From positions 268,522 to 332,521 of the forward strand of contig JABHQW010000008.1 in assembly GCA_018696595.1 (NCBI GenBank): a DNA stretch of 64,000 bases, written 5' to 3'. Of the stretch, positions 5,584 to 18,344 are shown piece by piece; the first letter of the stretch is position 1; each line of letters begins with the position of its first letter. Source of the DNA: Candidatus Woesearchaeota archaeon. Lineage in GTDB: Archaea > Nanobdellota > Nanobdellia > Woesearchaeales > GW2011-AR9. The notes under the pieces are model-generated. The model was not told the origin of the DNA, ran no database searches, and was given only the letters and a program-made list of their open reading frames with translations. The translations under genes and the position numbers were made by a program.

Positions 5584-7260
5584 TTGCACACTTCTCAAAG
5601 TTCAATTTATGAAAACGGAAAGGTTAACGGGATTCTCGGTATTGTTCGTGACGTTACGGAAAGAAAGAAAGCAGAAGAAAAATTAAAAGAATCTGAAGAA
5701 AAGTATAGGAAATTGTTTGAATCTGCTCAAGATGGCATTTTAATCATTAATACTGAAACTGGAAGAATAACAGATGCAAACCCTTTCATTGAGAAACTTC
5801 TTGGATATAATAAAAATGAATTTGTTGGAAAACAAATATTTGAAATAAGTCCATTTAAAGATATTGTTCCTAATAAAAATAAGTTTAAAGAGTTACAAAG
5901 AAAGAAGTACGTTAGATATAGTCATTTACCTTTGGAAACAAAAAAAGGAAAAAAGATTTCTGTTGAATTTATCTCTAATGTCTACCCCATTGATCACTCC
6001 CTGGTTATTCAAGCAAATATTAGGGACATAACAGAACAAAAGAAAGCAGAAGAAAAGTTGAAACAATATCAAAATACTTTAGAAAATACTATCAAAAAGC
6101 GAACTCAAGAATTATCAAACAAATTAATTGAATTAAAAGTTAGCCAAAAGAAATATCAAACTTTGTTTATTTCTTCTCAAGATGCGTTGATGACTCTTGC
6201 TCCTCCAACTTGGAAATTTACTGCTGGAAATCCTGCTACTGTAAAGATGTTTAATTGTAAAGATGAAAAACAGTTTATTTCTCTTGGACCTTGGCAAGTT
6301 TCACCAAAGAAACAGCCAGACGGCCAGTTATCTTCTGTAAAAGCAAAGAAGATGATTGAAAAGGCAATGAAAGAAGGTTCAAACTTCTTTGAATGGACTC
6401 ATAAACGTTACAAAGGAGAAGATTTTCCAGTAACTGTACTTTTGAATCGAATTCTTATTAATGGAGACACTTTCTTGCAAGCTACAGTGAGAGATATCAC
6501 CGAACAAAAATTAAATGAATCTCAAATTCAAGAACAGATTGAAGAACTTAAAGAATTAGATCAATTAAAAACTCAATTCCTTTCGTTTGTTTCTCACGAA
6601 TTAAGAACTCCTTTAACTCCGATTCGTTCACAATTACAAAGGTTGTTAGGGAAAAAATGTAAACCTCAAGAGCAACAAGGATCTTTGCAAATGATTTTAA
6701 GAAATACCGTTCGTTTAGACAAATTGATTAATGATGTTTTAGAAATATCTCGATTAGAATCAAAACGAATGCAAATATTCAAAAGATCTGTTAATCTTAA
6801 AAATTTAATTAAAAACACTATCACTACTATGCAACCTTTAGCTGAAGATAAAAATGTAAAGATTTCTACTTTGTTCAAAAGAGTTCCTCCAACAATTTCC
6901 CTTGATGAAGATAGGATTAAACAGGTTTTAATCAATTTGATTGATAATGCTATTAAACATAGTAAAACAAAAGAAATAGCCATTTCTGCTAAAAGAACTA
7001 ATCATCATGTAACTATTTGTGTAGAAGATCAAGGTAAAGGCATTTCAGAAAAAGAAAGAAAACATCTTTTTGAATTGTTTTATGTAGGAAAAGAATCAAA
7101 GTATCTAACTAAAGGCGCTGGTTTAGGATTACCAATTTCTAAAGGGATTGTTAATTTACACGGCGGTAAAATTTGGATTAAAACTAAAATTAAGAAAGGA
7201 ACAACTTTTTGTTTTACATTACCTATTAAAAATAGTGGACAAACAAACAAACAAAAATAA
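5584..7260 (+). CDS. PAS/PAC sensor histidine kinase (3 PAS, HisKA, HATPase_c). Probably 5'-truncated: a TTG start inside a PAS domain, with an in-frame PAS remnant from 5461.
   Basis: Repeated DITEQKKAEEKL PAS junctions. H-box FVSHELRTPLTPI. N-box LIDNAIKHS. G-box GAGLGLPISKGIV. Confidence 0.8.
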   Translation: MHTSQSSIYENGKVNGILGIVRDVTERKKAEEKLKESEEKYRKLFESAQDGILIINTETGRITDANPFIEKLLGYNKNEFVGKQIFEISPFKDIVPNKNKFKELQRKKYVRYSHLPLETKKGKKISVEFISNVYPIDHSLVIQANIRDITEQKKAEEKLKQYQNTLENTIKKRTQELSNKLIELKVSQKKYQTLFISSQDALMTLAPPTWKFTAGNPATVKMFNCKDEKQFISLGPWQVSPKKQPDGQLSSVKAKKMIEKAMKEGSNFFEWTHKRYKGEDFPVTVLLNRILINGDTFLQATVRDITEQKLNESQIQEQIEELKELDQLKTQFLSFVSHELRTPLTPIRSQLQRLLGKKCKPQEQQGSLQMILRNTVRLDKLINDVLEISRLESKRMQIFKRSVNLKNLIKNTITTMQPLAEDKNVKISTLFKRVPPTISLDEDRIKQVLINLIDNAIKHSKTKEIAISAKRTNHHVTICVEDQGKGISEKERKHLFELFYVGKESKYLTKGAGLGLPISKGIVNLHGGKIWIKTKIKKGTTFCFTLPIKNSGQTNKQK

Positions 7261-7299
7261 TATAAATGGCGAAGTATTTACAAGCTAAAAGAGGTTAAA

Positions 7300-7674
7300 A
7301 TGAAAAAAGAATATTTAATCATGTCTGTAGATGATGAGAATGATATCAGAGATTCTATTAAATCCGTTCTTGAAGATGAAGGTTTTAAAGTTGAAACTGC
7401 TAAAGATGGCGCTAGTATGCTTAAAAAGCTAGAAAAAATTAAACCAGACTTAATTCTTTTAGACATTTTAATGCCTGGTTTAACAACTCGAGAAATCATT
7501 ACTGAAGTAAAAAAAAGAAAAATAAAAACTCCTGTTATCTTTTTAACAGTAGTTAGATTAGCAGAAGCTACTAAAAAGCATGTTATTAAGGGTAATATGG
7601 TTGATTACATTGAGAAACCATTTGATAATAAAGATTTGATTAAAAGAGTTAAAAGAGCTCTGAAAACAAAATGA
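7300..7674 (+). CDS. Single-domain response regulator (CheY-like receiver)
   Basis: MSVDDENDIRD with acidic pocket. Phospho-acceptor context LILLDILMPG. Conserved K in IEKPFD. Confidence 0.85.
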   Translation: MKKEYLIMSVDDENDIRDSIKSVLEDEGFKVETAKDGASMLKKLEKIKPDLILLDILMPGLTTREIITEVKKRKIKTPVIFLTVVRLAEATKKHVIKGNMVDYIEKPFDNKDLIKRVKRALKTK

Positions 7675-8201
7675 AGACTACTTTAAAGAAAGAATTAGCT
7701 AAGAATAGCATCATTTTATTGGTAGTGCCAAACAAAGATTATAATAAAATTATTCTGCGAGAAGTTAAGAAACTTAAAGGCAAGAATATTTGTTATGTAA
7801 CCACAAATAAAGGTCATAGTGCTTTAGTAAACGATTTTGAAAAAAATAAGATTGATACCAAGAAATTCTTTTTTATTGATTGTGTAACTTCCACAATTCT
7901 TAAACCAAAAATAACTCCTCCGAATTGTGCTTTAGTATCTTCTCCTCGAGCTTTAACAGAATTAAGTTTGGCTATCAATAAGTTTGTAGATATTCATTTC
8001 CCATTAATCTTTATTGATTCTTTGTCTACTCTTTTAGTTTATCATAGTCCAAAAGTGTTGACTAATTTTGTTCATAGTTTAAGTACTAAAGTTAGAGAAA
8101 CTGGTCATGTGGTTCTAGTGATGACTATTGCCGATAAAGATAAGAAAACAGAATTATATAAAAAGCTACAAGTTTTAGCTGATAAAGTTATCAAAGTATA
8201 A
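7671..8201 (+). CDS. KaiC/RecA-fold protein lacking Walker A (DUF835-like). Start overlaps the receiver gene by 4 nt.
   Basis: Strand/helix pattern IILLVVP...ICYVTT...FFFIDCVTS...LIFIDSLSTLL...HVVLVMT resembles the KaiC/RadA core. No GxxxxGK[ST]. ATGA overlap with the receiver gene. Confidence 0.45.
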   Translation: MKTTLKKELAKNSIILLVVPNKDYNKIILREVKKLKGKNICYVTTNKGHSALVNDFEKNKIDTKKFFFIDCVTSTILKPKITPPNCALVSSPRALTELSLAINKFVDIHFPLIFIDSLSTLLVYHSPKVLTNFVHSLSTKVRETGHVVLVMTIADKDKKTELYKKLQVLADKVIKV

Positions 8202-8328
8202 TTATTTATTTCTTATTTTTGAAGATAATCAGAATTACCTTATTCTCAATAAATTTAAGTTTTTAACCAAAAACTTTATATATCTAAGATGCACACCATA
8301 TGCACAGGGGGTACACCCGGAGGTCAAA

Positions 8329-8583
8329 ATGGTTTATGCAAGAATAACTTTGAATGATTATGCAAATAAAGTACTTAATGTAGTTAAAGCTAAATTTAGC
8401 CTTAATGATAAGTCTGAAGCAATTAATAAATTTGTTGAAATGTATGGTGAAGAAGTAGTGGAGAAAGAAGCTAATGATGAATATGTCAAGAAAGTAATTA
8501 AAATGACTGATGAGCATATCAAAAAATATGGTTACCGAAAAATGAATCTAAAAGAATTAGATAAAATTAGTGGTTTAAATTAA
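8329..8583 (+). CDS. Putative antitoxin of a type II toxin-antitoxin pair
   Basis: 84-aa ORF immediately upstream of a RelE/ParE-like toxin (14-nt gap). Preceded by GGAGGT. Confidence 0.45.
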   Translation: MVYARITLNDYANKVLNVVKAKFSLNDKSEAINKFVEMYGEEVVEKEANDEYVKKVIKMTDEHIKKYGYRKMNLKELDKISGLN

Positions 8584-8596
8584 AGGGGTTTTTTAT

Positions 8597-8869
8597 ATGT
8601 TTGATTTTGATTTGCATGATAAATTAAGTACGATTCTTAGTAAGTTATCTAAAAAGGACAAAAAGAAAGTTGAGATTATCAATAAGAAAATTAAAGAAAT
8701 TATTGCCAATGACCATAAAACAATTGACAGGTATAAAAATCTAAGAACTCCGTTACAACATTTAAAGCGTGTTCATATTGACAAACATTTTGTTTTAACT
8801 TTTAATGTCGATAAAGAAAAAAACTTTATTTTATTCGTGGATTTTGCTCATCATGACACTGTTTATTAA
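8597..8869 (+). CDS. RelE/ParE-family toxin
   Basis: 90 aa. C-terminal HFVLTFNVDKEKNFILFVDFAHHDTVY is typical of RelE/YoeB-fold toxins. Confidence 0.55.
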   Translation: MFDFDLHDKLSTILSKLSKKDKKKVEIINKKIKEIIANDHKTIDRYKNLRTPLQHLKRVHIDKHFVLTFNVDKEKNFILFVDFAHHDTVY

Positions 8870-8886
8870 AGAATTAATTATAATAT

Positions 8887-10095
8887 CTAAGGTCCTTGAA
8901 TCTCGCCGAATACTTCTTGTTCAGGATAAACTGTTACACCTTTCTCACCAATACTCATCGCTACAATCTTGTTCTGATGAGAAGTACCACGTAATTTAAG
9001 GATCTCAATCGCTCTTTCCCTGATGTTGCCACGTTTGATGTTATAGATAACAATAACCCCATCGGCAAGGAACTCTTCAACACCAGTAGTAGAGAAAATC
9101 TTAGGAACTTGTTCAGTTTCCGTAATTAAAAGAGCAGTAGCTTTAATATTTTCAAAGAATCTGAACAACTGTTCAATATAAATTCTGTATGATTCATCTT
9201 TAGCAGTAAAAGCAGAAGCAATCGCAGTTAAAGAGTCAACAACAATAAAGTCCGGTTTGAAACCTTTTGGTAAAATCAACGGATCAACTTCAATCATTAA
9301 CTCACCTTTAGCTTGCATTAGAAGAGCATCTACACTACGAGTAATTTCAAAAGGATTAAATCGTTTAACATAAAATTGTTTCTTCTTAATATACTTTCTA
9401 GGATTCCAACCAAACTGTTCCATGTGTCCAATAAGTTTTTCTTCAGATTCTTCAAAACTCATCATAATACATTTCTTTCCTTCAGCAAGATGATGAAATA
9501 AAGTTTGTAAACAGAAAATAGTTTTTCCTGAACCTGCACCACCAGCAACTAAGATTGAACCGTTTTTTGGAATGCCATTATCAAGTAAGTCATCAAATCC
9601 AGGAACCCCTGTATAAATAAACCCTTCTTTAGCTGCAGTAGCATGGCTTCTTTCAAATTGAGATTTAATTTCTGCTTTTAATGAGCCAAGATCAAATAGT
9701 TTATTTCCTGTCGGTTTAGCTGCTACTGTTTCTTCTGTTGGAATTGTTTCTTTACCTTTCGAATCAACATCTTTTACGGTTTCTTGATCTCCTTTTGGAG
9801 CAATAATCTTATCTTTAATTCCTTTAAGTTGATTTTTGATTTTGTCTTTAATCACTACTTTTGTTTTAACTTGAGAAACTTTTACAGTAGGGATTTTCTT
9901 TCCTTTCTTCAATTTAGGTGTTGCAGTCAATTCTTTGCCTAAATGTTTAACAATTTTCTTACGTTTCTTTCTAATTTCTTGGGTTATAACTTTCTTTCTA
10001 GCAGGACTTACTTGATGGATATACTGCTTTTTCTCTTTATCTACTTTGTGCAGCTTCTTATTTCGAGCAGATTCGGCTTTACTTAATAATCCCAT
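8887..10095 (-). CDS. KaiC-like RecA-superfamily ATPase with a 160-aa lysine-rich N-terminal extension
   Basis: GVPGFDDLLDNGIPKNGSILVAGGAGSGKT (Walker A). FIVVDSLTAI (Walker B region). Single KaiC/RadB-like domain. Confidence 0.8.
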   Translation of the reverse strand: MGLLSKAESARNKKLHKVDKEKKQYIHQVSPARKKVITQEIRKKRKKIVKHLGKELTATPKLKKGKKIPTVKVSQVKTKVVIKDKIKNQLKGIKDKIIAPKGDQETVKDVDSKGKETIPTEETVAAKPTGNKLFDLGSLKAEIKSQFERSHATAAKEGFIYTGVPGFDDLLDNGIPKNGSILVAGGAGSGKTIFCLQTLFHHLAEGKKCIMMSFEESEEKLIGHMEQFGWNPRKYIKKKQFYVKRFNPFEITRSVDALLMQAKGELMIEVDPLILPKGFKPDFIVVDSLTAIASAFTAKDESYRIYIEQLFRFFENIKATALLITETEQVPKIFSTTGVEEFLADGVIVIYNIKRGNIRERAIEILKLRGTSHQNKIVAMSIGEKGVTVYPEQEVFGEIQGP

Positions 10096-10100
10096 TTTAG

Positions 10101-11993
10101 CTATTTAACCCCATACTTATTCATAATCTTTTTATAAGTTTTGAAATCTTTTGATTTTGAAAATGCGTTAATTTCTTTTTTAGGCAATTTTCCAAGTAAA
10201 CCATCAATTTTTCTTAATGCCGGTTTAAGATCTTTATCCACATCAACATTAGATTTAACTTTAACCCTAATACGTTTAATCTCTTTAACAATTCTCGTTT
10301 TGATTTTAACAACTTGTACAATTTTTGTTTTTATTTTAATAATTGGTAATTTCTCATCAATAATTAAATGCAACTTGTGTAGTTCATCTCTTAACTTATT
10401 AGCATCATTAACTCTTTTAATTTTTTCTTTAACAACTTTATTTAAGTTTTTAAGTTGTTTATCCCTATCAGATAATTTTTCTGAAATGGCCTTATAATTA
10501 GCTTTAGTCTTCTCTTGTTTATCCTCTAGCTTTATTTCTTCCTCTCTTAATTTTCGAAGAATGTTCTCGTTATTAGCTGTTTTATTTGATATGTTAGATT
10601 TTCTTTTACGAAGAGTTTTAGCCTTTTCTAATAATTTCAATCTATTAGCAGATAACTCTTTCTTTTTAGTTTCCATTTCATTATCGATTTCAGATTTCCT
10701 TTTCTCTAATTGTTTGGAAGCGCTTCCTTTTTTACGATTAAGAACAACAATTTCTTTATCTAAATCAGCAATCTTTAATCCTGCCTGTTTGTTAGCCCGT
10801 GCTTGTTTAAGTTTAAGCCTTTTCTTTTCATTTTCAAGATTATTTTTTAATTGTACTTTTTTTCTCGTCAAATCGACACTAATTTTTTGTTGTTTAATTT
10901 TTTCTAAAGCAATTTCTTTTTCTACATTTTTGATTTTCTTCCAAGTGTTAGATTTAACTTCATCTTCTAATCGGGCAATATAATTATCTAAACGATCATA
11001 AACTGGTTTCTTTAAGAGTGATTGTTTAATTTTTCTTTCTAATTGGATTTTTTGGACTATTTTTCTTAATAACTGTTCTTCTTCAACTAGACTTTGATGT
11101 TTTCTTTTTTCAGAAGAAATTTGATTGTTAGTAGCAGTTAATGATTTCTTATTTTTATTTAACTTAGTCATAGCAAAGTTTTGTTTTTGGTTAAGAGCTT
11201 TAATTCTTTTACCCACTTCTTCTTTTTTCAAAGCTTGTTTTCGATAAGCTTCTTGTGTTCTCGTTAAATCTTTGGAAATATCTTCAATTTGTTTATTTAA
11301 ATCTAAATGTTTCTTAACAATTTTCTGTTGTTTTTCATTTTGAACTTTACTTTCCTTTCTTACTGATAATAATAATTGTCTTTTTACAGCTGCTAATGAA
11401 GTTTCAATATTATCAAGTAAAGTTTGGTGTTCTTTTTTCTCTTTTAAAACTTTAATTTGTAACTGCTCAATATTTCTCTTCTTAGCTAAAAATTCTTTTT
11501 GTGTAGAAAAAGAGTTATCTTGGAACGAACGTAATTGTCTTTTTTTAAGCAACATTTCTTTCTCTATGTTTTTAAGACTAGTTTTAGCTTTAGATTTTTC
11601 AGCTTTAAAACTATCAATCACTGCTGGCATATCTCCAGAAACCGCTTTAACCGCAGTTAACATCTTTTCAATTTTGTTTAATTTTATTTTTCCTGTTTTT
11701 AATTCATTCTCTTTTTCTTGAATGTCAAGCAAAATCATTTTCGTTTTTGCTTCATTAATACTTTTCCTTTGTAATAATTCTTTTTCCAAATCATTCATTT
11801 CTCTTTTAATTTGGTTTAAAGCTTGGCTATCTCTATTCAGTAAACTTAAAGAGGCTGTTCTTCTTCTTTCCCATGACTTTAATTTATTACTGAAGCTTTT
11901 CTTTTCTTTTTCTAAAACTTTAATTTTCCTTCCAGATTCAGAAAGAATTTTGTTAATCTCCTTCTCCAAATTGAGCAATAATTCTGGCATCAC
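10101..11993 (-). CDS. Long coiled-coil protein (630 aa, K/E/L/Q-rich) with no globular enzymatic domain recognised
   Basis: Continuous heptad-like composition. Ends 5 nt upstream of the KaiC-like gene start, so the two are operonic. Confidence 0.55.
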   Translation of the reverse strand: MMPELLLNLEKEINKILSESGRKIKVLEKEKKSFSNKLKSWERRRTASLSLLNRDSQALNQIKREMNDLEKELLQRKSINEAKTKMILLDIQEKENELKTGKIKLNKIEKMLTAVKAVSGDMPAVIDSFKAEKSKAKTSLKNIEKEMLLKKRQLRSFQDNSFSTQKEFLAKKRNIEQLQIKVLKEKKEHQTLLDNIETSLAAVKRQLLLSVRKESKVQNEKQQKIVKKHLDLNKQIEDISKDLTRTQEAYRKQALKKEEVGKRIKALNQKQNFAMTKLNKNKKSLTATNNQISSEKRKHQSLVEEEQLLRKIVQKIQLERKIKQSLLKKPVYDRLDNYIARLEDEVKSNTWKKIKNVEKEIALEKIKQQKISVDLTRKKVQLKNNLENEKKRLKLKQARANKQAGLKIADLDKEIVVLNRKKGSASKQLEKRKSEIDNEMETKKKELSANRLKLLEKAKTLRKRKSNISNKTANNENILRKLREEEIKLEDKQEKTKANYKAISEKLSDRDKQLKNLNKVVKEKIKRVNDANKLRDELHKLHLIIDEKLPIIKIKTKIVQVVKIKTRIVKEIKRIRVKVKSNVDVDKDLKPALRKIDGLLGKLPKKEINAFSKSKDFKTYKKIMNKYGVK

Positions 11994-12390
11994 CGTAAGT
12001 TCTTAAAATTCTTTTGATTGCACTAGCATTACTTCCTGCTGCAGAAACGAACGTGCTAACTCCTAATTTTGCAAATAATTCTTCATTTTTTGGTTTTCTT
12101 ACTAAAGGAACAACTTTTTGTACTTTCTCTGATTTTCCAATTTGTGAAATCATTAAGTTAGTAGTATCATCACCAGTTGCAACCACTAAAGCATCAACTT
12201 TATCAATTTCTGCTTCTTTTAAAATAGAAATATCTGTACCATCACCATGAATGACTAAAGCGTTAGTTTTTTGCGCTAACTCTTTAGCACGGATTTCATC
12301 TTTTTCAACAAGAGTAACTTCCATTTCCTTTTCAAATAGTTTTGCTAGAGTTAGGCCAGTTTCCCCGCCACCAACAATAATAATTTTCAT
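11953..12390 (-). CDS. TrkA-N (NAD-binding Rossmann, K+ transport regulator) domain protein
   Basis: MKIIIVGGGETGLTLAKLF Rossmann motif. 145 aa. Overlaps the 5' end of the downstream coiled-coil gene. Confidence 0.75.
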   Translation of the reverse strand: MKIIIVGGGETGLTLAKLFEKEMEVTLVEKDEIRAKELAQKTNALVIHGDGTDISILKEAEIDKVDALVVATGDDTTNLMISQIGKSEKVQKVVPLVRKPKNEELFAKLGVSTFVSAAGSNASAIKRILRTYGDARIIAQFGEGD

Positions 12391-12480
12391 TTTCTTAACC
12401 TCTTTTTTAATATGATTTTTTAATAATGTTATATAATCTAAATACTTACCTATATAAAAATCTTGCTTTTCTTTAACTAC

Positions 12481-13221
12481 TTAATGTCCCACATGTAAAT
12501 TTAATTTAAGACTCAATTTCTGATAAACAAACCCGGCAACACTTTTTAAATTCTCAATATCTTCACCATTATACTCCAATAACAAATCCAAATACTCTCG
12601 GTCGCCAGAAGCGTGGAACGCTTTCCATAAGTCAACAGGATTGCCATAAAGATGAGCTGGCCTCCCTAATCCCAGTCTCTTCTCAACTTCTTTCAACCCT
12701 CCAACTAATCCTAAATTAACACAAAGTTGTTTCAAGTCTAGATGAGCAACTTTAACAACAATACCCATTTCCTTTCTTAACTTCGGTAAATCAAACGCAC
12801 CACCATTAAACGTAACAATTAATTTGTACTTCGATAACTCTTTTTCAATTTCTCCTTTTGACAAATTAACTCCTTTGACAAAATAATTACTATTGTAATA
12901 ATCAGAAATGCCTACTACGATAACTTTCCCCACAGAATCAACTTCAATATCCAAGTAACCTGTTTCTTCTTTAAAATAGTCATACAATCTCCAAGTCTCA
13001 ACAGCAGCTAATTTTCCAATAAAATAATTACTCTCCTCATTAACTAAAGCTTCTTTAGCCTCTTTAATTTTCCGATTATAATATTCTTTGCTTCGCACAG
13101 AAATTCCTTTAATCTTATCAACACGAAGAAAATCATTCCAATCTTTAATTCCTGAGTTCCAAATATTTTTCTCCTTACCGGAACCAACTTTCTCCAAAAA
13201 AATAAACGATTTTCTGATCAT
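12481..13221 (-). CDS. RNase H-like 3'-5' exonuclease (YprB/COG3359 RNase_H_2-like)
   Basis: Acidic motifs YLDIEVD, TFNGGAFDLPKL and YNGEDIENL match the DnaQ-like Exo I-III arrangement. Confidence 0.55.
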   Translation of the reverse strand: MIRKSFIFLEKVGSGKEKNIWNSGIKDWNDFLRVDKIKGISVRSKEYYNRKIKEAKEALVNEESNYFIGKLAAVETWRLYDYFKEETGYLDIEVDSVGKVIVVGISDYYNSNYFVKGVNLSKGEIEKELSKYKLIVTFNGGAFDLPKLRKEMGIVVKVAHLDLKQLCVNLGLVGGLKEVEKRLGLGRPAHLYGNPVDLWKAFHASGDREYLDLLLEYNGEDIENLKSVAGFVYQKLSLKLNLHVGH

Positions 13222-13327
13222 AACTATTTCAAGAATAAACTAATTTAAATGTTTATGTTTTTCTACCTCGCAGGGACAGGAAATTTTTATAAACTCCTCG
13301 ACATTCTACTTATTTCCTACTGTTCAC

Positions 13328-13393
13328 GGGAGAATTGATTTCACTTGTTGATGTCTTCGGATTGATGCTTGTGTTTGATGCTTCGGACGTGTT
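13328..13393. repeat. Copy 1 of a tandem duplicated, relatively GC-rich, approximately 65-nt element
   Basis: CGGGAGAATTGATTTCACTTGTTGATGTCTTCGGATTGATGCTTGTGTTTGATGCTTCGGACGTG. Near-identical copy 90 nt downstream. Confidence 0.6.
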
Positions 13394-13417
13394 CAGTTAA
13401 ATCGTTTCAGTTGTTTG

Positions 13418-15722: not shown

Positions 15723-18344
15723 CTATTCAATCTCAAATCGAAGTATAGCAGCAATGCCGCCTAAATCTCTAAGTTGTGCCCCTTCTCTAGTTTCTGTAGA
15801 AATAATCCTAACTTCTGCACCACCTGCTTGTGCCTTCTCTTCCAAATCAAAAATCTTATTTTCAGGAATACTCTCTGAAATTAGTAAAATGTCAACTGCG
15901 GCCATTTCTAAAGCTTTCAATGTTTCTTTCTCCCCATAAGTTGCTTTTTTGGGCGTATCTCTAAGAGTGCCTAAGAATTGTTGCATAATTTTTTTCTCGT
16001 GAGCAATTTCTTCTTCTGATAAAAGGTCTTCAGATTTTTCTAATAATTCTTGCAATCCAAAATCTCCGGTATACGATAAATCTTTAGTACCAATAATTTT
16101 TTTCTTTACATCTCCAGTAATATAATCTTTATTCATAAAATCGTTAATCGTAACACCGGGGCCACCAATAATAATGCCTTTCAAATCTTTTCCAAGAGGT
16201 AAGAATTGATCTTTCATATATTCTGCAATTTTTTTAAAATGATCTTTAGCAGCACCTTCTCTTAGACGAGCGAATCTTTGAGCAGAATTATGAACTATTA
16301 ATCCATTTGCTATGAAGTTTTGATTGCCAACAGAAATGTCAATCATTTCAGTTTCTTCATTTCTTTTTTCAATATTAGCAATCTTAACCGGCAAAATGGG
16401 GCTATTATAAACTTCTTCTAATTGTGTATATAATTTCTTATCTTTAACACAAGACAAGATAGAACTCTTAAATGTTTGTTTACTCATCATTCTCTCATTT
16501 CTAAAGAAGTTTGTTACTTTTGGAAATTGGTTTGTGTTGTAACCAGCGTTTTCAATTATCTTTCTGATTTTCGAACCAGAAGCAATAATTTGTCTGACAT
16601 TACTCTTATTTGATCTTAAATCAATACTCTTTTCTAATTTTTGTGATTTTTTATTACAAGTAAATCCAATTTGTTCTTTAAATAATTCTAAAGATTTCTT
16701 TTCTGTAATGTCAATTGTAAAGCGAGGATTATCACTTAGTGGATTTCTTCTATTGTCATATTCATGTAAAGAAGAAATGATTCCAAATCTTAACAAAGCC
16801 ATTTGTATTTGTTGTGCCAATATTTTGTTATTTATTCCAAATGCAGCCTGTTTTCTTTGAGAAACATAACCTTCTGCATCAAAAAATCCTTTCACAAAAC
16901 TTGCAAGAATTTTATTTGGAGAATTTAATATTTTTTCGGGAATTAAAGAATCTCTTGCTTTTTTTATTTCTGGAAATTCTGTTTGAATTAATCTAACTAA
17001 TGGTCTACTTGTAAATCTTAACTGGTGGTAATTCTTACTTTCTCTAAATTTATAACTACAATTCAGATCAAAGTGTTGATCAAACAATTCTTTATAATGT
17101 AAAGCAAGATCTTTACTTTGTTCAAAGAAAGTAATTCTATCTTTTTCTATACAACCATCACCCATTAGATAACCTAAAAATTGAGCGAGATTTGCTTCAA
17201 GAAGAACCGGCAATTTGATGTTTTTGTATAGTTCAGGAGTAGTATAGTTATTTAGGAAATCATAAAAATCAATTTCTAAGGCCGCACAAAGCTTTTGCAA
17301 AGGAATTCTTCCAATATTTCTTTTTCCTTTTTCGTAAGTTGATATTGCTGTTTGGGTAAGCCCAGTAAGTTTTGCAACATCTCTCTGAAATAAACTTTTT
17401 TCTTCTCGTTTTCTCTTGATTTGGTTTTGTCCTTCTTTATTTATTTTGAAAGAATTATAATATTGAACTGCTTTGATGGTTTGAAGTTTACCTTCTACTT
17501 CTATTTTTTCAGGCATAATTAGAAAATCTCCTTCTTGAAGTTCTTCAGCGGCTTTTTCTTTGATTCCATTCTCAGTTTTCACAAAGAAAATATGGTCTTT
17601 AGAAGATTCTACTTGTAGTCTTGGATATTTTGTTGTGATCTTGTAAACTTCATGTTTTTTGGCATTCCATTTATCTGTAATTGGTGAATCTTTAATTGAG
17701 TGACTTTCCATAACCATACTCTTGAGCACAATTGGGTTATGGGAATTTTCAATTTTTAAGATGTCTCCCTGAGTGGATTGAATTAATGTTCCTTTCATAC
17801 AACATTGTCCACCTGCTTTAGTTTTTCCAGGAACTTCCGAATGTGTTTTTTGCATTGGGACAATAGATTTTCCTTTCAACAGAGCAATGGTTGCATCCCT
17901 TCTATCCATAACAACAAGACCATAAACTTCTTTGTTAACCATCATTTCTTCTAATAAATCAGTTACAAAGTTTTTATCACAACGATAAATACGTGTGTTT
18001 AATTGGATTGGTGGTTCAATACTCCAAACTCGAACATCTTGTTTACCTTCTCCTGCGGCAACGTTTCCAGAAAAAACCGCAAAACCATTTTCTGGTGTGT
18101 TACCAATAGTTCTTAAATGTTGAATCATTTTTTCCAAAGCATTCTGGACATTCTTTCTAGTAGCAGCAGATTTAATGTTTGAAGCGGTTCCTTGCTCTTC
18201 TGCTAGATGTTGAATAATTTTTGTCATATCATAACCAGAAGGGATGTAAACTGTAACAAACTCTGTATGTGGAGCCTTATGGCTACGTAACTCACTTACT
18301 ATTTTTTTCAGTTTCAGTTTCTCTTGTGCGGTTATCGCTGCCAT
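15723..18344 (-). CDS. prf1: Peptide chain release factor aRF1 (eRF1 homolog) interrupted by an intein
   Basis: Exteins together are about 367 aa, with NIKS-like region and KTKAGGQ|SAQRFARLRE. The C-terminus GGIAAILRFEIE is eRF1-like. Confidence 0.9.
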   Translation of the reverse strand: MAAITAQEKLKLKKIVSELRSHKAPHTEFVTVYIPSGYDMTKIIQHLAEEQGTASNIKSAATRKNVQNALEKMIQHLRTIGNTPENGFAVFSGNVAAGEGKQDVRVWSIEPPIQLNTRIYRCDKNFVTDLLEEMMVNKEVYGLVVMDRRDATIALLKGKSIVPMQKTHSEVPGKTKAGGQCCMKGTLIQSTQGDILKIENSHNPIVLKSMVMESHSIKDSPITDKWNAKKHEVYKITTKYPRLQVESSKDHIFFVKTENGIKEKAAEELQEGDFLIMPEKIEVEGKLQTIKAVQYYNSFKINKEGQNQIKRKREEKSLFQRDVAKLTGLTQTAISTYEKGKRNIGRIPLQKLCAALEIDFYDFLNNYTTPELYKNIKLPVLLEANLAQFLGYLMGDGCIEKDRITFFEQSKDLALHYKELFDQHFDLNCSYKFRESKNYHQLRFTSRPLVRLIQTEFPEIKKARDSLIPEKILNSPNKILASFVKGFFDAEGYVSQRKQAAFGINNKILAQQIQMALLRFGIISSLHEYDNRRNPLSDNPRFTIDITEKKSLELFKEQIGFTCNKKSQKLEKSIDLRSNKSNVRQIIASGSKIRKIIENAGYNTNQFPKVTNFFRNERMMSKQTFKSSILSCVKDKKLYTQLEEVYNSPILPVKIANIEKRNEETEMIDISVGNQNFIANGLIVHNSAQRFARLREGAAKDHFKKIAEYMKDQFLPLGKDLKGIIIGGPGVTINDFMNKDYITGDVKKKIIGTKDLSYTGDFGLQELLEKSEDLLSEEEIAHEKKIMQQFLGTLRDTPKKATYGEKETLKALEMAAVDILLISESIPENKIFDLEEKAQAGGAEVRIISTETREGAQLRDLGGIAAILRFEIE
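16287..17804 (-). mobile_element. Intein (506 aa) inserted between GGQ and S of aRF1. Contains a LAGLIDADG homing endonuclease and an XRE-type HTH.
   Basis: Starts with Cys directly after GGQ. Ends ...NQNFIANGLIVHN followed by the Ser +1 residue. LAGLIDADG motifs LGYLMGDG and GFFDAEG. HTH LFQRDVAKLTGLTQTAISTYEKG. Confidence 0.85.

What the first reader, a model, noticed from the sequence alone, without database searches (positions are those of the whole stretch)
8887..12390. Operon of TrkA-N protein, 630-aa coiled-coil protein and KaiC-like ATPase with a lysine-rich N-terminal extension
Three co-oriented, overlapping or abutting genes on the minus strand. The ATPase carries a 160-aa K-rich disordered N-terminus in front of a single KaiC/RadB domain. 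Its partner is an uninterrupted 630-aa coiled coil with no enzymatic domain. The combination of a giant coiled coil and a RecA-like ATPase is reminiscent of filament, segregation or signalling scaffolds, yet it is not a known SMC/Rad50 or archaeal cytoskeletal system. The TrkA-N protein suggests NAD(H) or ligand regulation.
Basis: inference. Interest (0 to 1): 0.55.

Follow-up and report, generated by a model that had tools for sequence, protein, structure and literature searches.

The report
Scaffold protein docked to KaiC-like ATPase
In this marine Woesearchaeota genome a long, very basic helical protein and a KaiC-like ATPase form a conserved gene pair whose facing ends carry a matched tail domain and head tag that also recur with pilus ATPases in other archaea, which suggests, without any binding test, a reusable docking system; the TrkA-N gene is a lineage-specific add-on.

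Summary
All three ORFs exist as described. Only two of them form a conserved unit.

- **Conserved pair.** The 630-aa helical protein and the KaiC-like ATPase sit next to each other in every locus of the head-tagged (MGLL-type) KaiC orthologues examined (49-81% identity).
- **TrkA-N.** It occurs only in the window genome. It is missing even from the closest relative.
- **Matched ends.** The helical protein ends in a ~40-aa three-helix domain related to Pfam PF27359 ('TP_0179', function unknown). The KaiC begins with 'MGLLxKAE'.
- **Same pairing elsewhere.** 25 of 30 distinct tail-domain proteins are followed at once by a gene starting M(S)GL[LRK]x[KR]A. The downstream partner is a KaiC, a PilB-like pilus ATPase, a giant protein with an inactive KaiC-like domain, or a wHTH protein.
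- **Supporting tests.** KaiC orthologues without the tag lack the partner (3 of 3). Two loci fetched blind through small tail-domain proteins both showed the predicted tag.
- **The ATPase.** It is a single CI-type KaiC domain with intact catalytic motifs. Its N-terminus is a confident helical hairpin followed by a lysine-rich disordered linker.
- **Neighbours.** Sensor kinase or PAS genes, a receiver and an inactive KaiC-like DUF7504 protein recur nearby.

Best reading: a scaffold-docked member of the archaeal KaiC-like signalling hubs. Physical binding is inferred, not shown.

The parts
10101..11993 (-). Scaffold gene. It encodes a 630-aa (629 from the ATG at 11990) lysine-rich, almost all-helical protein. 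The N-terminal ~190 aa are variable and the C-terminal ~440 aa are conserved.
   Evidence: ORF. No Pfam hit. AF2 helices 2-117, 122-322, 331-574. 21% Lys and net charge +82. Intact in independent assemblies. The C-terminal 438 aa are 66% identical without gaps to the L056 orthologue. Orthologues of 486-1109 aa lie directly upstream of MGLL-type KaiC genes.
10104..10232 (-). C-terminal docking domain of the scaffold (residues ~588-630, 'LKPALRKIDGLLGKLPKKEINAFSKSKDFKTYKKIMNKYGVK'). It is a three-helix mini-domain related to Pfam PF27359 'TP_0179'.
   Evidence: AF2 helices 588-599, 604-612, 616-625. The motif is conserved in alignment A1. phmmer hit to the PF27359 protein P0122 at E=1.9e-5 in 5.8 billion sequences. 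All 25 hits of the motif profile carry PF27359. The family name appears. The domain is at the extreme C-terminus in 160 of 166 family proteins.
10251..10343 (-). Basic segment of alternating hydrophobic and Lys/Arg residues just before the docking domain (residues ~551-581, 'IIKIKTKIVQVVKIKTRIVKEIKRIRVKVKS').
   Evidence: Sequence. Segments of the same kind are present in the orthologues, alignment A1. AF2 confidence is low here (pLDDT 40-60). Function unknown.
8887..10095 (-). KaiC-like ATPase gene, 402 aa.
   Evidence: ORF. PF06745 E=7.6e-52. An identical protein (P0001) is listed in 46 blocks of the contig collection, of which 24 contigs were read.
9943..10095 (-). N-terminal tag 'MGLLSKAE' plus a conserved helical hairpin (residues 1-51).
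   Evidence: AF2 helices 3-21 and 31-51, pLDDT 81-90. Conserved 'MGLLxKAExxRxKLLxKLTKEKKKYIxxV' in alignments A2 and A6. The tag follows the tail-domain gene in 25 of 30 cases. 26 of the 28 ORFs that start with the tag lie directly after such a gene.
9691..9942 (-). Lysine-rich, low-confidence linker (residues 52-135). Close relatives carry a hemerythrin domain inserted here.
   Evidence: pLDDT mostly below 50. The N-terminal extension is 24% Lys with net charge +25. The basic character is kept in orthologues (net +21 to +41). Hemerythrin-KaiC relatives such as P0002, with the same N-terminal tag.
8908..9618 (-). Single CI-type KaiC/RecA ATPase domain (residues 160-396). It carries Walker A GGAGSGKT (9520-9543), the catalytic pair E215/E216 and Walker B D287.
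   Evidence: These residues are invariant across 40 homologues. PDB sequence hits to KaiC at E=1e-41 to 1e-50, with the CI half as best stretch. Foldseek top hits are the KaiC CI domain, TM ~0.8. The positions of KaiC S431/T432 are Glu-Phe here.
11953..12390 (-). Stand-alone TrkA-N (Rossmann, GGGETG) gene. It is probably co-transcribed here but is not a conserved member of the module.
   Evidence: PF02254 E=3.8e-27. 38-41 nt overlap with the scaffold ORF, with a TATA-like TTTTTATATA and a GAGGT upstream of its own start. Absent from all other KaiC loci. No TrkA_C domain, and TrkA equivalog cut-offs are not reached.
5584..7260 (+). PAS sensor histidine kinase, a recurrent neighbour of the module.
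   Evidence: PAS, HisKA and HATPase_c on the identical gene in L004. Kinase or PAS sensor genes lie near the pair in L007, L008, L010, L053, L054 and L056.
7300..7674 (+). Receiver-only response regulator. It overlaps the next gene by 4 nt.
   Evidence: PF00072 E=2.2e-26. Orthologues are adjacent to DUF7504 genes in L008, L010 and L055.
7671..8201 (+). DUF7504 protein: a probable inactive KaiC/ArlH-like domain with no Walker A motif.
   Evidence: PF24336 at 30.3 bits (cut-off 27). Sub-threshold KaiC (E=1.3e-4) and FlaH/ArlH (E=4.8e-6) hits. 'PNKDYNK' stands where the P-loop would be, and a Walker-B-like 'LIFIDSLSTL' is present. The profile-profile alignment to KaiC is colinear but not significant (E=0.13). 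Found near the KaiC in 5 of 8 MGLL-type loci.

Best explanation
The core is a two-gene module. A long, strongly basic helical scaffold ends in a small three-helix TP_0179-type domain. A single-domain, CI-type KaiC-like ATPase, presumably hexameric, begins with an 'MGLLxKAE' helix.

I propose that the scaffold's C-terminal domain binds the ATPase's N-terminal tag. The ATPase ring would then be tethered to the scaffold through ~85-residue basic flexible linkers.

The module is one branch of the archaeal 'KaiC-like ATPase signalling hub'. Input would come from three sources:
- the neighbouring PAS histidine kinase, receiver and inactive KaiC-like DUF7504 protein;
- sensor domains inserted into the linker in relatives (hemerythrin);
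- in this genome only, possibly a co-transcribed NAD(H)-type TrkA-N protein.

The N-terminal module acts as an address label. Sister KaiC proteins carry a wHTH DNA-binding domain in the same position, and the same tail-domain and tag pair attaches adaptors to PilB-type pilus ATPases in other archaea.

**Shown:** gene adjacency, the conservation pattern, co-occurrence and co-absence of the two termini, intact ATPase motifs, and the CI-type character.

**Inferred:** physical binding, hexamer formation, control by the two-component system, and the output, which remains unknown.
For: 1. **Pair conserved while scaffold length varies.** The scaffold is 486-1109 aa in L001, L007, L008, L010, L053, L054 and L056. 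Only its C-terminal part and tail domain are conserved.
2. **Tail followed by tag.** 25 of 30 distinct tail-domain proteins are followed within 130 nt by an ORF starting M(S)GL[LRK]x[KR]A. Of 499 distinct ORFs of at least 100 aa in all fetched DNA, 28 start that way. 26 of those 28 lie directly after a tail-domain gene.
3. **The partner class changes but the termini do not.** Partners are KaiC, T2SSE/PilB3-like ATPases (L017, L021, L026, L036), DUF835-containing giant proteins (L033) and a wHTH protein (L047).
4. **Co-absence.** KaiC orthologues without the tag (L002, L003, L055) have no tail-domain gene upstream. In L055 the upstream gene is a dCache sensor.
5. **Blind prediction.** Two loci were fetched only through small TP_0179 proteins. 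Both downstream T2SSE ATPases start MGLLTK.
6. **Position of the tail domain.** It is at the extreme C-terminus in 160 of 166 family proteins.
7. **Covariation.** A 9-residue tail goes with Arg/Lys at tag position 4 (11 of 11). A tail of 10 or more residues goes with Leu (13 of 14). Fisher p = 2.7e-6, not corrected for phylogeny.
8. **Structure prediction.** AF2 gives confident helices for KaiC residues 1-51 and three short helices for the tail domain.
9. **Signalling context.** The window and L008, L010 and L055 have a kinase, a receiver and DUF7504. PAS sensors are near the pair elsewhere. Relatives carry hemerythrin or wHTH N-terminal variants.
10. **Literature.** REC-iKaiC fusions and the KaiC-hub idea are published (PMC5847659, which cites Makarova 2017). 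PMC4858521 notes that for most archaeal KaiC-like ATPases no interacting second component is evident.
Against: - No physical or structural test of binding was possible.
- The loci used for the pairing statistics were fetched by the tail motif itself. Many are related, so the counts are not independent events.
- The covariation is confounded with the class of partner protein.
- Pfam's own precomputed PF27359 hits are absent on the Woesearchaeota scaffold proteins. Membership rests on my profile and on one phmmer hit.
- The 'YGV' codons just before the stop supply a GGGG Shine-Dalgarno-like stretch for the KaiC start. Part of the tail conservation could therefore be at the nucleotide level.
- The kinase, receiver and DUF7504 genes are on the opposite strand and are missing from some loci (L001, L053).
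- Nothing identifies an output.
Confidence: 0.5

Rival explanations
1. The pair is an accessory of a type IV pilus, an archaellum-like machine or a surface structure. The KaiC would act like ArlH, which regulates or docks onto a PilB/ArlI-type ATPase. The helical protein would act like the ArlX/ArlCDE scaffold. The module would control a pilus or giant adhesin encoded elsewhere.
For: - The same tail-domain and tag pair precedes PilB-like T2SSE ATPases that have T2SSF and pilin-like genes next to them.
- KaiC-family ATPases and coiled-coil proteins are known companions of archaeal type IV pilus loci (PMC4858521).
- Weak ArlH/FlaH matches (E=4e-12 and 1.2e-13).
- Giant Big_7/NPCBM_assoc surface proteins lie just downstream of the KaiC module in L002, L007, L054, L055 and L056.
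Against: - There is no T2SSE, T2SSF or pilin gene in the 64-kb window.
- ArlH scores are far below the family cut-offs (46 bits against 215).
- In KaiC-type loci the neighbours are sensor kinases, not pilus genes.
- In the pilus loci the tag sits on the PilB ATPase itself, not on a KaiC.
Confidence: 0.17
2. The two termini do not bind each other. The tail domain and the MGLL tag would each be recognised by a third factor or by the membrane. Alternatively, their adjacency reflects translational coupling or the ancient fission of one helical domain. The gene pair would then be co-expressed without forming a scaffold-ATPase complex.
For: - The stop and start are 5 nt apart, and a Shine-Dalgarno-like GGGG lies inside the last codons.
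- The tag resembles N-terminal amphipathic membrane-targeting helices, and it is followed by a basic linker.
- There are no binding data.
Against: - Conservation is at the amino-acid level across loci whose GC content ranges from 0.28 to at least 0.46.
- No protein was found with the tail domain and the tag fused in one chain.
- Tail length covaries with tag residue 4.
- L031 has proteins that carry both ends, arranged in a chain.
Confidence: 0.15
3. It is a DNA- or chromosome-associated machine. The very basic helical protein and the lysine-rich KaiC linker would bind nucleic acid. The RecA-superfamily ATPase would act in repair, segregation or nucleoid organisation, like RadB or SMC.
For: - Net charges of +82 and +25.
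- RecA-superfamily fold.
- Sister KaiC proteins carry a wHTH DNA-binding N-terminus.
- The basic character of the linker is kept in orthologues.
Against: - RadB scores 16 bits against a cut-off of 172, and SMC 15 bits against 567.
- There are no repair or segregation genes nearby.
- In the other partner classes the linker after the tag is acidic.
- Lysine richness is common in low-GC genomes (own knowledge).
Confidence: 0.1
4. One reading: a three-protein unit in which TrkA-N senses NAD(H) and regulates the coiled-coil protein and the ATPase.
For: - In this genome TrkA-N overlaps the scaffold ORF by 38-41 nt. It has its own TATA-like element and ribosome-binding site, so it probably heads the transcript.
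- The GxGxxG motif is intact.
Against: - TrkA-N is absent from every other locus, including the closest relative.
- In L010, which shares the flanking Band_7 and RNase_H_2 genes, that slot holds a DUF7504-like gene instead.
Confidence: 0.08

Closest known systems
Archaeal KaiC-like ATPase signalling hubs (Makarova, Galperin and Koonin 2017 mBio, as cited in PMC5847659; that paper itself was not readable here)
   Same: - Single-domain KaiC-family ATPase.
- Neighbourhood with a histidine kinase, a receiver and an inactivated KaiC-like domain. REC-iKaiC and REC-DUF835 fusions are listed in PMC5847659.
- Variable N-terminal input modules.
   Different: - The partner is a long helical scaffold with a TP_0179-type C-terminal domain.
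- The ATPase carries a conserved N-terminal MGLL tag.
- I found no description of this pairing in the searchable literature.
- PMC4858521 states that most archaeal KaiC-like ATPases have no evident second component.
Cyanobacterial KaiC with KaiA, KaiB, SasA and RpaA
   Same: - The ATPase domain is closest in sequence and fold to KaiC CI.
- It is linked with a histidine kinase and a receiver, as in the SasA-RpaA output pathway.
   Different: - One domain instead of CI plus CII.
- No Ser/Thr at the S431/T432 positions.
- No kaiA or kaiB gene found nearby.
- KaiC equivalog cut-offs are not met (139 bits against 408).
- Nothing suggests a clock.
FliH-FliI (SctL-SctN) and the peripheral stalks of rotary ATPases
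   Same: Working analogy only. An elongated coiled-coil protein uses its C-terminal part to hold the extreme N-terminus of a hexameric RecA-like ATPase (own knowledge).
   Different: No homology. The FliH Pfam match of the KaiC N-terminus is not significant (E=0.15). No secretion or rotary machinery is present.
Archaellum ArlX/ArlCDE-ArlH-ArlI complex
   Same: - A KaiC-like ATPase together with a coiled-coil scaffold.
- The same docking pair is used by PilB/ArlI-type ATPases in other archaea.
   Different: - ArlH cut-offs are not met.
- The window has no archaellum or pilus genes.
Pfam PF27359 'TP_0179' (named after Treponema pallidum TP0179, a hypothetical protein)
   Same: The scaffold's last ~40 residues share the motif LLxKLPxxEIxxFxKSxxFxxY with proteins that carry PF27359.
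   Different: - No function is known for the family (PMC8789261 lists TP0179 only as hypothetical).
- Pfam's precomputed scan did not flag the Woesearchaeota scaffold proteins.
- I found no statement of the link to a downstream MGLL-tagged partner in the literature I could search.

Membership tests
KaiC family (Pfam PF06745, RecA superfamily) | Significant match to the KaiC ATPase domain model | tested here: met
   176 bits against a cut-off of 26.6, E=7.6e-52, residues 161-393. PDB KaiC hits at E=1e-41 to 1e-50. Foldseek TM ~0.8 to the CI domain.
KaiC family (Pfam PF06745, RecA superfamily) | Walker A, Walker B and the catalytic glutamate pair are intact | tested here: met
   GGAGSGKT, E215/E216 and D287 are invariant in 40 homologues.
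Bona fide circadian KaiC | Duplicated CI plus CII architecture | tested here: not met
   Single domain. KaiC equivalog models score 139 bits (cut-off 408) and 110 bits (cut-off 546).
Bona fide circadian KaiC | Autophosphorylation sites equivalent to S431/T432 | tested here: not met
   In the alignment to CII these positions are Glu-Phe, as in CI.
Bona fide circadian KaiC | kaiB or kaiA partner gene adjacent | tested here: not met
   Of the genes scanned against Pfam, those between 7300 and 15491 gave no KaiA or KaiB match. The gene tables of L004 and the related loci, which extend further, list none either.
ArlH/FlaH (archaellum KaiC-like protein) | Score above the NCBIfam equivalog cut-off, and an archaellum operon context | tested here: not met
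   NF052589 scores 46 bits against 215, and PRK06067 scores 51 against 194. No T2SSE or T2SSF homologue in the window.
RadB/RadA recombinases | Score above the family cut-off | tested here: not met
   radB scores 16 bits against 172, and sms scores 19 against 403.
SMC/Rad50 | ABC ATPase head domains flanking an antiparallel coiled coil with a hinge or zinc hook | tested here: not met
   SMC_prok_B scores 15 bits against 567, and the match covers coiled coil only. No Pfam domain.
TrkA (regulatory subunit of the Trk/Ktr potassium transporter) | TrkA_N plus TrkA_C (RCK) architecture, and a TrkH/KtrB partner gene | tested here: not met
   Only TrkA_N is present, in a 145-aa protein. The best TrkA equivalog scores 100 bits against 386. 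No transporter gene is adjacent.
Pfam PF27359 TP_0179 domain | Match to the family model at the C-terminus of the scaffold | tested here: inconclusive
   The model is not in the local Pfam copy, and the precomputed tables show no hit on the scaffold proteins. On the other side, phmmer links the window C-terminus to the PF27359 protein P0122 (E=1.9e-5). A profile of window-like tails retrieves only PF27359 proteins (25 of 25).
DUF7504 / inactivated KaiC (iKaiC) | Family match, plus a KaiC-like fold without a P-loop | tested here: inconclusive
   PF24336 scores 30.3 bits against 27, so it is met. KaiC and ArlH hits are sub-threshold. There is no GKT motif. hhalign to KaiC is colinear but E=0.13. 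The structure was not predicted.

The most novel reading that the evidence does not exclude
The TP_0179-type C-terminal domain and the N-terminal 'MGL[LR]xKA' peptide form a general, portable docking code in archaea. Scaffolds and adaptors of several kinds would use it: coiled coils, zinc-ribbon proteins, membrane proteins, and small proteins with a ParB-like N-terminal peptide. Through it they would recruit P-loop ATPases of unrelated families (KaiC-like, PilB/T2SSE, inactive DUF835 giants) and even wHTH regulators. The window module would be one instance, in which a KaiC signalling ATPase is addressed to a giant basic scaffold.
Probability: 0.45. Interest if true: 0.75.

Novelty: new variant of a known kind. 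Interest (0 to 1): 0.6.

Why it matters
- **KaiC-like ATPases.** They are proposed to be the main native signalling hubs of archaea, yet for most of them no partner or output is known. A conserved, predictable partner with a defined ~40-residue domain and a ~10-residue tag gives a hypothesis that pull-down, a multimer model or tag deletion can test directly.
- **The domain of unknown function.** If the same pair also recruits pilus ATPases, it would give a function to PF27359. A profile search found 2742 clusters at 50% identity for this domain. It would also explain how archaeal adaptors place hexameric ATPases.
- **Annotation.** The public name of the window KaiC, 'TadA', is not supported.

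Tried and rejected
1. **Pseudo-complex prediction.** I fused tail domain, GS linker and tag from 23 natural pairs into one chain for AF2.
2. **Genome-collection scan with the KaiC.** It returned only 3 loci. Synteny had to be built from contig look-ups and one metagenome scan.
3. **Homology search with the scaffold's C-terminal 300 aa.** It returned only 2 proteins. The sequence composition probably suppresses hits.
4. **Pfam scans of the tail and of the KaiC N-terminus at E up to 10.** Nothing significant; FliH scored E=0.15.
5. **PDB profile search for the tail domain.** No significant match; best E=0.23.
6. **Whole-protein heptad Fourier test.** Not above shuffled controls. I do not claim a canonical continuous coiled coil.
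7. **Profile-profile link of DUF7504 to KaiC.** Colinear but not significant.
8. **Makarova 2017 mBio.** It could not be read. Comparison with it rests on papers that cite it and on my memory of the abstract.
9. **Search for a protein with tail domain and tag fused in one chain.** None found.
10. **Rejected readings.**
    - SMC/Rad50, RadB and ArlH membership: scores far below cut-offs.
    - A pilus locus in the window: none found.
    - The NCBI name 'TadA' for the KaiC: its T2SSE score is 18 bits against a cut-off of 24.9.

Full report
**1. The observation**

The window is a low-GC (about 0.32) archaeal sequence. The exact KaiC protein is on record from many marine metagenome contigs. NCBI labels it Candidatus Woesearchaeota.

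Three co-oriented minus-strand ORFs lie at the stated coordinates:
- TrkA-N, 11953-12390, 145 aa, PF02254 E=3.8e-27.
- A 630-aa ORF, 10101-11993, with no Pfam hit.
- A 402-aa protein, 8887-10095, with a KaiC domain on residues 161-393, E=7.6e-52.

TrkA-N overlaps the long ORF by 38-41 nt. The stop of the long ORF is 5 nt from the KaiC start. The long ORF is intact in independently assembled contigs from different samples, so it is not an assembly artefact.

**2. Anatomy of the two core proteins**

*The helical protein.* A single-sequence AF2 model makes it about 93% helix:
- The long helices are 2-117, 122-322 and 331-574.
- A low-confidence basic stretch follows.
- Three short helices at 588-625 end the protein.
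- Mean pLDDT is 72.7.

It is 21% Lys with net charge +82. A crude periodicity test supports a heptad-like repeat only locally. I therefore call it a long basic helical scaffold, probably a coiled coil, rather than an uninterrupted coiled coil.

*The KaiC protein.* An AF2 model built with 40 homologues gives these regions:

| Residues | Prediction |
|---|---|
| 1-51 | two confident helices (pLDDT 81-90) |
| 52-135 | low-confidence lysine-rich linker |
| 136-149 | helix |
| 160-396 | well-predicted ATPase domain |

Further properties of the ATPase domain:
- Walker A, the catalytic Glu pair and Walker B are invariant.
- The domain aligns better to the CI half of KaiC than to CII (99-113 bits against 40-61).
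- It has Glu-Phe where CII has the phospho-acceptors S431/T432.
- Foldseek's top hits are KaiC CI.

It is a KaiC-like, CI-type ATPase and not a clock KaiC.

**3. Conservation**

I fetched the genomic context of KaiC orthologues at 49-81% identity and re-analysed the loci with the window proteins as queries.

- Every orthologue that starts 'MGLL...' has a large protein with no Pfam hit directly upstream: L001, L007, L008, L053, L054, L056 and L030. L010 has the same partner but carries a variant tag.
- That upstream protein is 486-1109 aa long. It aligns with the window scaffold over its C-terminal part and ends in the same motif.
- TrkA-N was found only in the window genome. The closest relative, L056 (81% identical KaiC, and a scaffold 66% identical over 438 aa), lacks it.
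- L010 shares the flanking Band_7 and RNase_H_2 genes. It has a DUF7504-like gene in that slot.
- Recurrent neighbours are PAS, dCache and HisKA sensor proteins, a receiver-only response regulator, and a DUF7504 protein that looks like a KaiC/ArlH domain without a P-loop.
- In the window these neighbours are at 5584-8201 on the plus strand. The receiver and DUF7504 genes overlap by 4 nt.

**4. The matched termini**

A metagenome scan seeded with the scaffold alignment returned 41 loci that hold the tail motif.

- *Adjacency.*
  - Among 30 distinct proteins that end in the motif, 25 are followed within 130 nt by an ORF starting M(S)GL[LRK]x[KR]A.
  - Of the five exceptions, two have almost no downstream DNA (L022, L024), two carry variant starts (L010, L035) and one (L048) was not examined further.
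  - Of 499 distinct ORFs of at least 100 aa in all fetched DNA, 28 start that way, and 26 of those 28 sit right after a tail-domain gene.
- *Partner classes.* The downstream partner is a KaiC, a PilB3-like T2SSE ATPase with T2SSF and pilin-like genes, a 1000-1770-aa protein that in L033 carries an N-terminal DUF835 (inactive KaiC-like) domain, or a wHTH protein.
- *Co-absence.* KaiC orthologues without the tag have no tail-domain gene upstream (L002, L003, L055).
- *Chains.* L031 has a protein with both ends, lying between a tail-domain gene and another tagged gene.
- *Identity of the tail.* A profile of the tail retrieved only proteins annotated with Pfam PF27359. Later gene tables name that family 'TP_0179'. 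TP0179 of Treponema pallidum is a hypothetical protein (PMC8789261).
- *Size of the family.* An exhaustive profile search found 2742 clusters at 50% identity. The domain is at the extreme C-terminus in 160 of 166 proteins examined.
- *Blind test.* I fetched two loci through small stand-alone TP_0179 proteins only. In both, the next gene is a T2SSE ATPase that starts MGLLTK.
- *Covariation.* Tails that end 9 residues after the conserved Tyr go with Arg/Lys at tag position 4 (11 of 11). Tails one or two residues longer, usually ending in Lys, go with Leu (13 of 14). Fisher p = 2.7e-6. This suggests a contact with a charge swap, but it is confounded with partner class and phylogeny.
- *No fusion.* No protein carries both elements fused in one chain. 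No solved structure matches the tail domain.

**5. Mechanism proposed**

The scaffold's C-terminal TP_0179-type domain binds the N-terminal MGLL helix of the KaiC-like ATPase. A presumably hexameric ATPase would then hang on the scaffold by flexible basic linkers.

The N-terminal module works as an address. Among the 120 closest KaiC-domain homologues, 23-25 start with the MGLL tag. Many others start with a wHTH-like 'DKTKIKIEDLLKSHPDGLTI' segment. Several carry hemerythrin between the N-terminal module and the ATPase.

Input most likely comes from the neighbouring kinase, receiver and DUF7504 genes. These resemble a split version of the REC-iKaiC fusions already catalogued in archaea (PMC5847659).

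In this genome a co-transcribed TrkA-N protein may add an NAD(H)-type input, but that is a lineage-specific guess.

Binding, the oligomeric state, regulation and output are all inferred.

**6. Rivals**

- *Pilus or archaellum accessory (ArlH/ArlX-like).* This remains possible. The same docking pair serves PilB ATPases, and giant surface proteins often follow the module. However, the window has no pilus genes and ArlH cut-offs are not met.
- *A DNA-associated machine.* The extreme basic charge suggests it. Family scores and gene context do not support it.
- *The termini do not bind each other.* Possible causes would be a third factor, membrane targeting or translational coupling. Without an interaction test this cannot be excluded. 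The last codons also supply a Shine-Dalgarno-like GGGG.

**7. Comparison with what is known, and novelty**

KaiC-like ATPases as archaeal signalling hubs, with inactive KaiC domains and two-component partners, are a published idea (cited in PMC5847659). KaiC and coiled-coil proteins near type IV pilus loci are noted in PMC4858521. That paper also says that a second component is usually not evident.

PF27359 exists as a domain of unknown function. I found no description of the scaffold-KaiC pair in Woesearchaeota, or of the pairing between tail domain and MGLL tag. The key 2017 paper could not be read.

I rate this a new variant of a known kind. It has a more novel general reading, a portable docking code, at about 45% probability.

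Noticed in passing
L026:7022-10299; L057:4058-7372: Small stand-alone TP_0179 proteins (59-60 aa: P0125, P0127, P0128, P0135) begin with a ParB-like 'M(E)GKG[LVI]xA[LF]' peptide. In both loci examined (P0128 in L026, P0125 in L057) the small gene lies between a ParA/MinD-like ATPase gene and an MGL-tagged PilB-like ATPase gene. This suggests an adaptor that links a ParA-type positioning ATPase to a pilus ATPase.
   Followed up: partly
L007:9284-15191; L054:11214-15257; L055:11209-15317; L056:9019-14580; L002:9091-16711: Giant (1800 to over 4600 aa) Big_7/NPCBM_assoc surface proteins lie just downstream of the KaiC module in 5 of 11 related loci. A 46-84-aa ORF often precedes them. The window has no such gene within 64 kb.
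   Followed up: no
window 8329-8583 (+) and 8597-8869 (+): Two small genes (84 and 90 aa) sit between the KaiC gene and the DUF7504, receiver and kinase cluster. The second has a weak match to YhaV, a RelE-like toxin (E=0.0012), so they may be a toxin-antitoxin pair. In L008 the DUF7504 gene abuts the KaiC gene directly, so the pair looks like an insertion here.
   Followed up: no
window 15723-18344 (-): An 873-aa release factor aRF1 is interrupted by an intein that carries LAGLIDADG and HTH_3 domains (Pfam list in the L004 gene table).
   Followed up: no
window 8887-10095 (-): The public NCBI name of this exact protein is 'Flp pilus assembly complex ATPase component TadA'. Its T2SSE match is only 18 bits against a cut-off of 24.9, whereas KaiC scores 176 bits. 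The name is a misannotation.
   Followed up: yes
L019, L033, L039, L043, L045, L046, L051 (around locus position 6600-13400): In loci whose proteins are rich in Asp, Glu and Arg, the tail-domain protein is a ~400-500-aa double zinc-ribbon plus coiled-coil protein. L019 matches Pfam DZR, and the others have CxxC pairs at the N-terminus. Its MGLR-tagged partner is a 1300-1770-aa protein. In L033 the partner has an N-terminal DUF835 domain followed by a long Glu/Arg-rich region. In L045 it matches an RNase_Y_N-like segment instead.
   Followed up: partly
L010:10054-10734 (-): One DUF7504 orthologue itself begins 'MGLLQKIKQGR', followed by a basic Ser/Lys-rich linker. The tag may therefore also occur on the inactive KaiC-like proteins.
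   Followed up: no
P0160 (733 aa), P0159, P0189, P0122, P0150: Some TP_0179 proteins are membrane proteins with two copies of the domain. P0160 has an N-terminal tandem pair, a transmembrane segment and a large extracellular part with Asp-rich repeats. One member of its cluster is named a DNRLRE domain protein of Thermoplasmatota.
   Followed up: no
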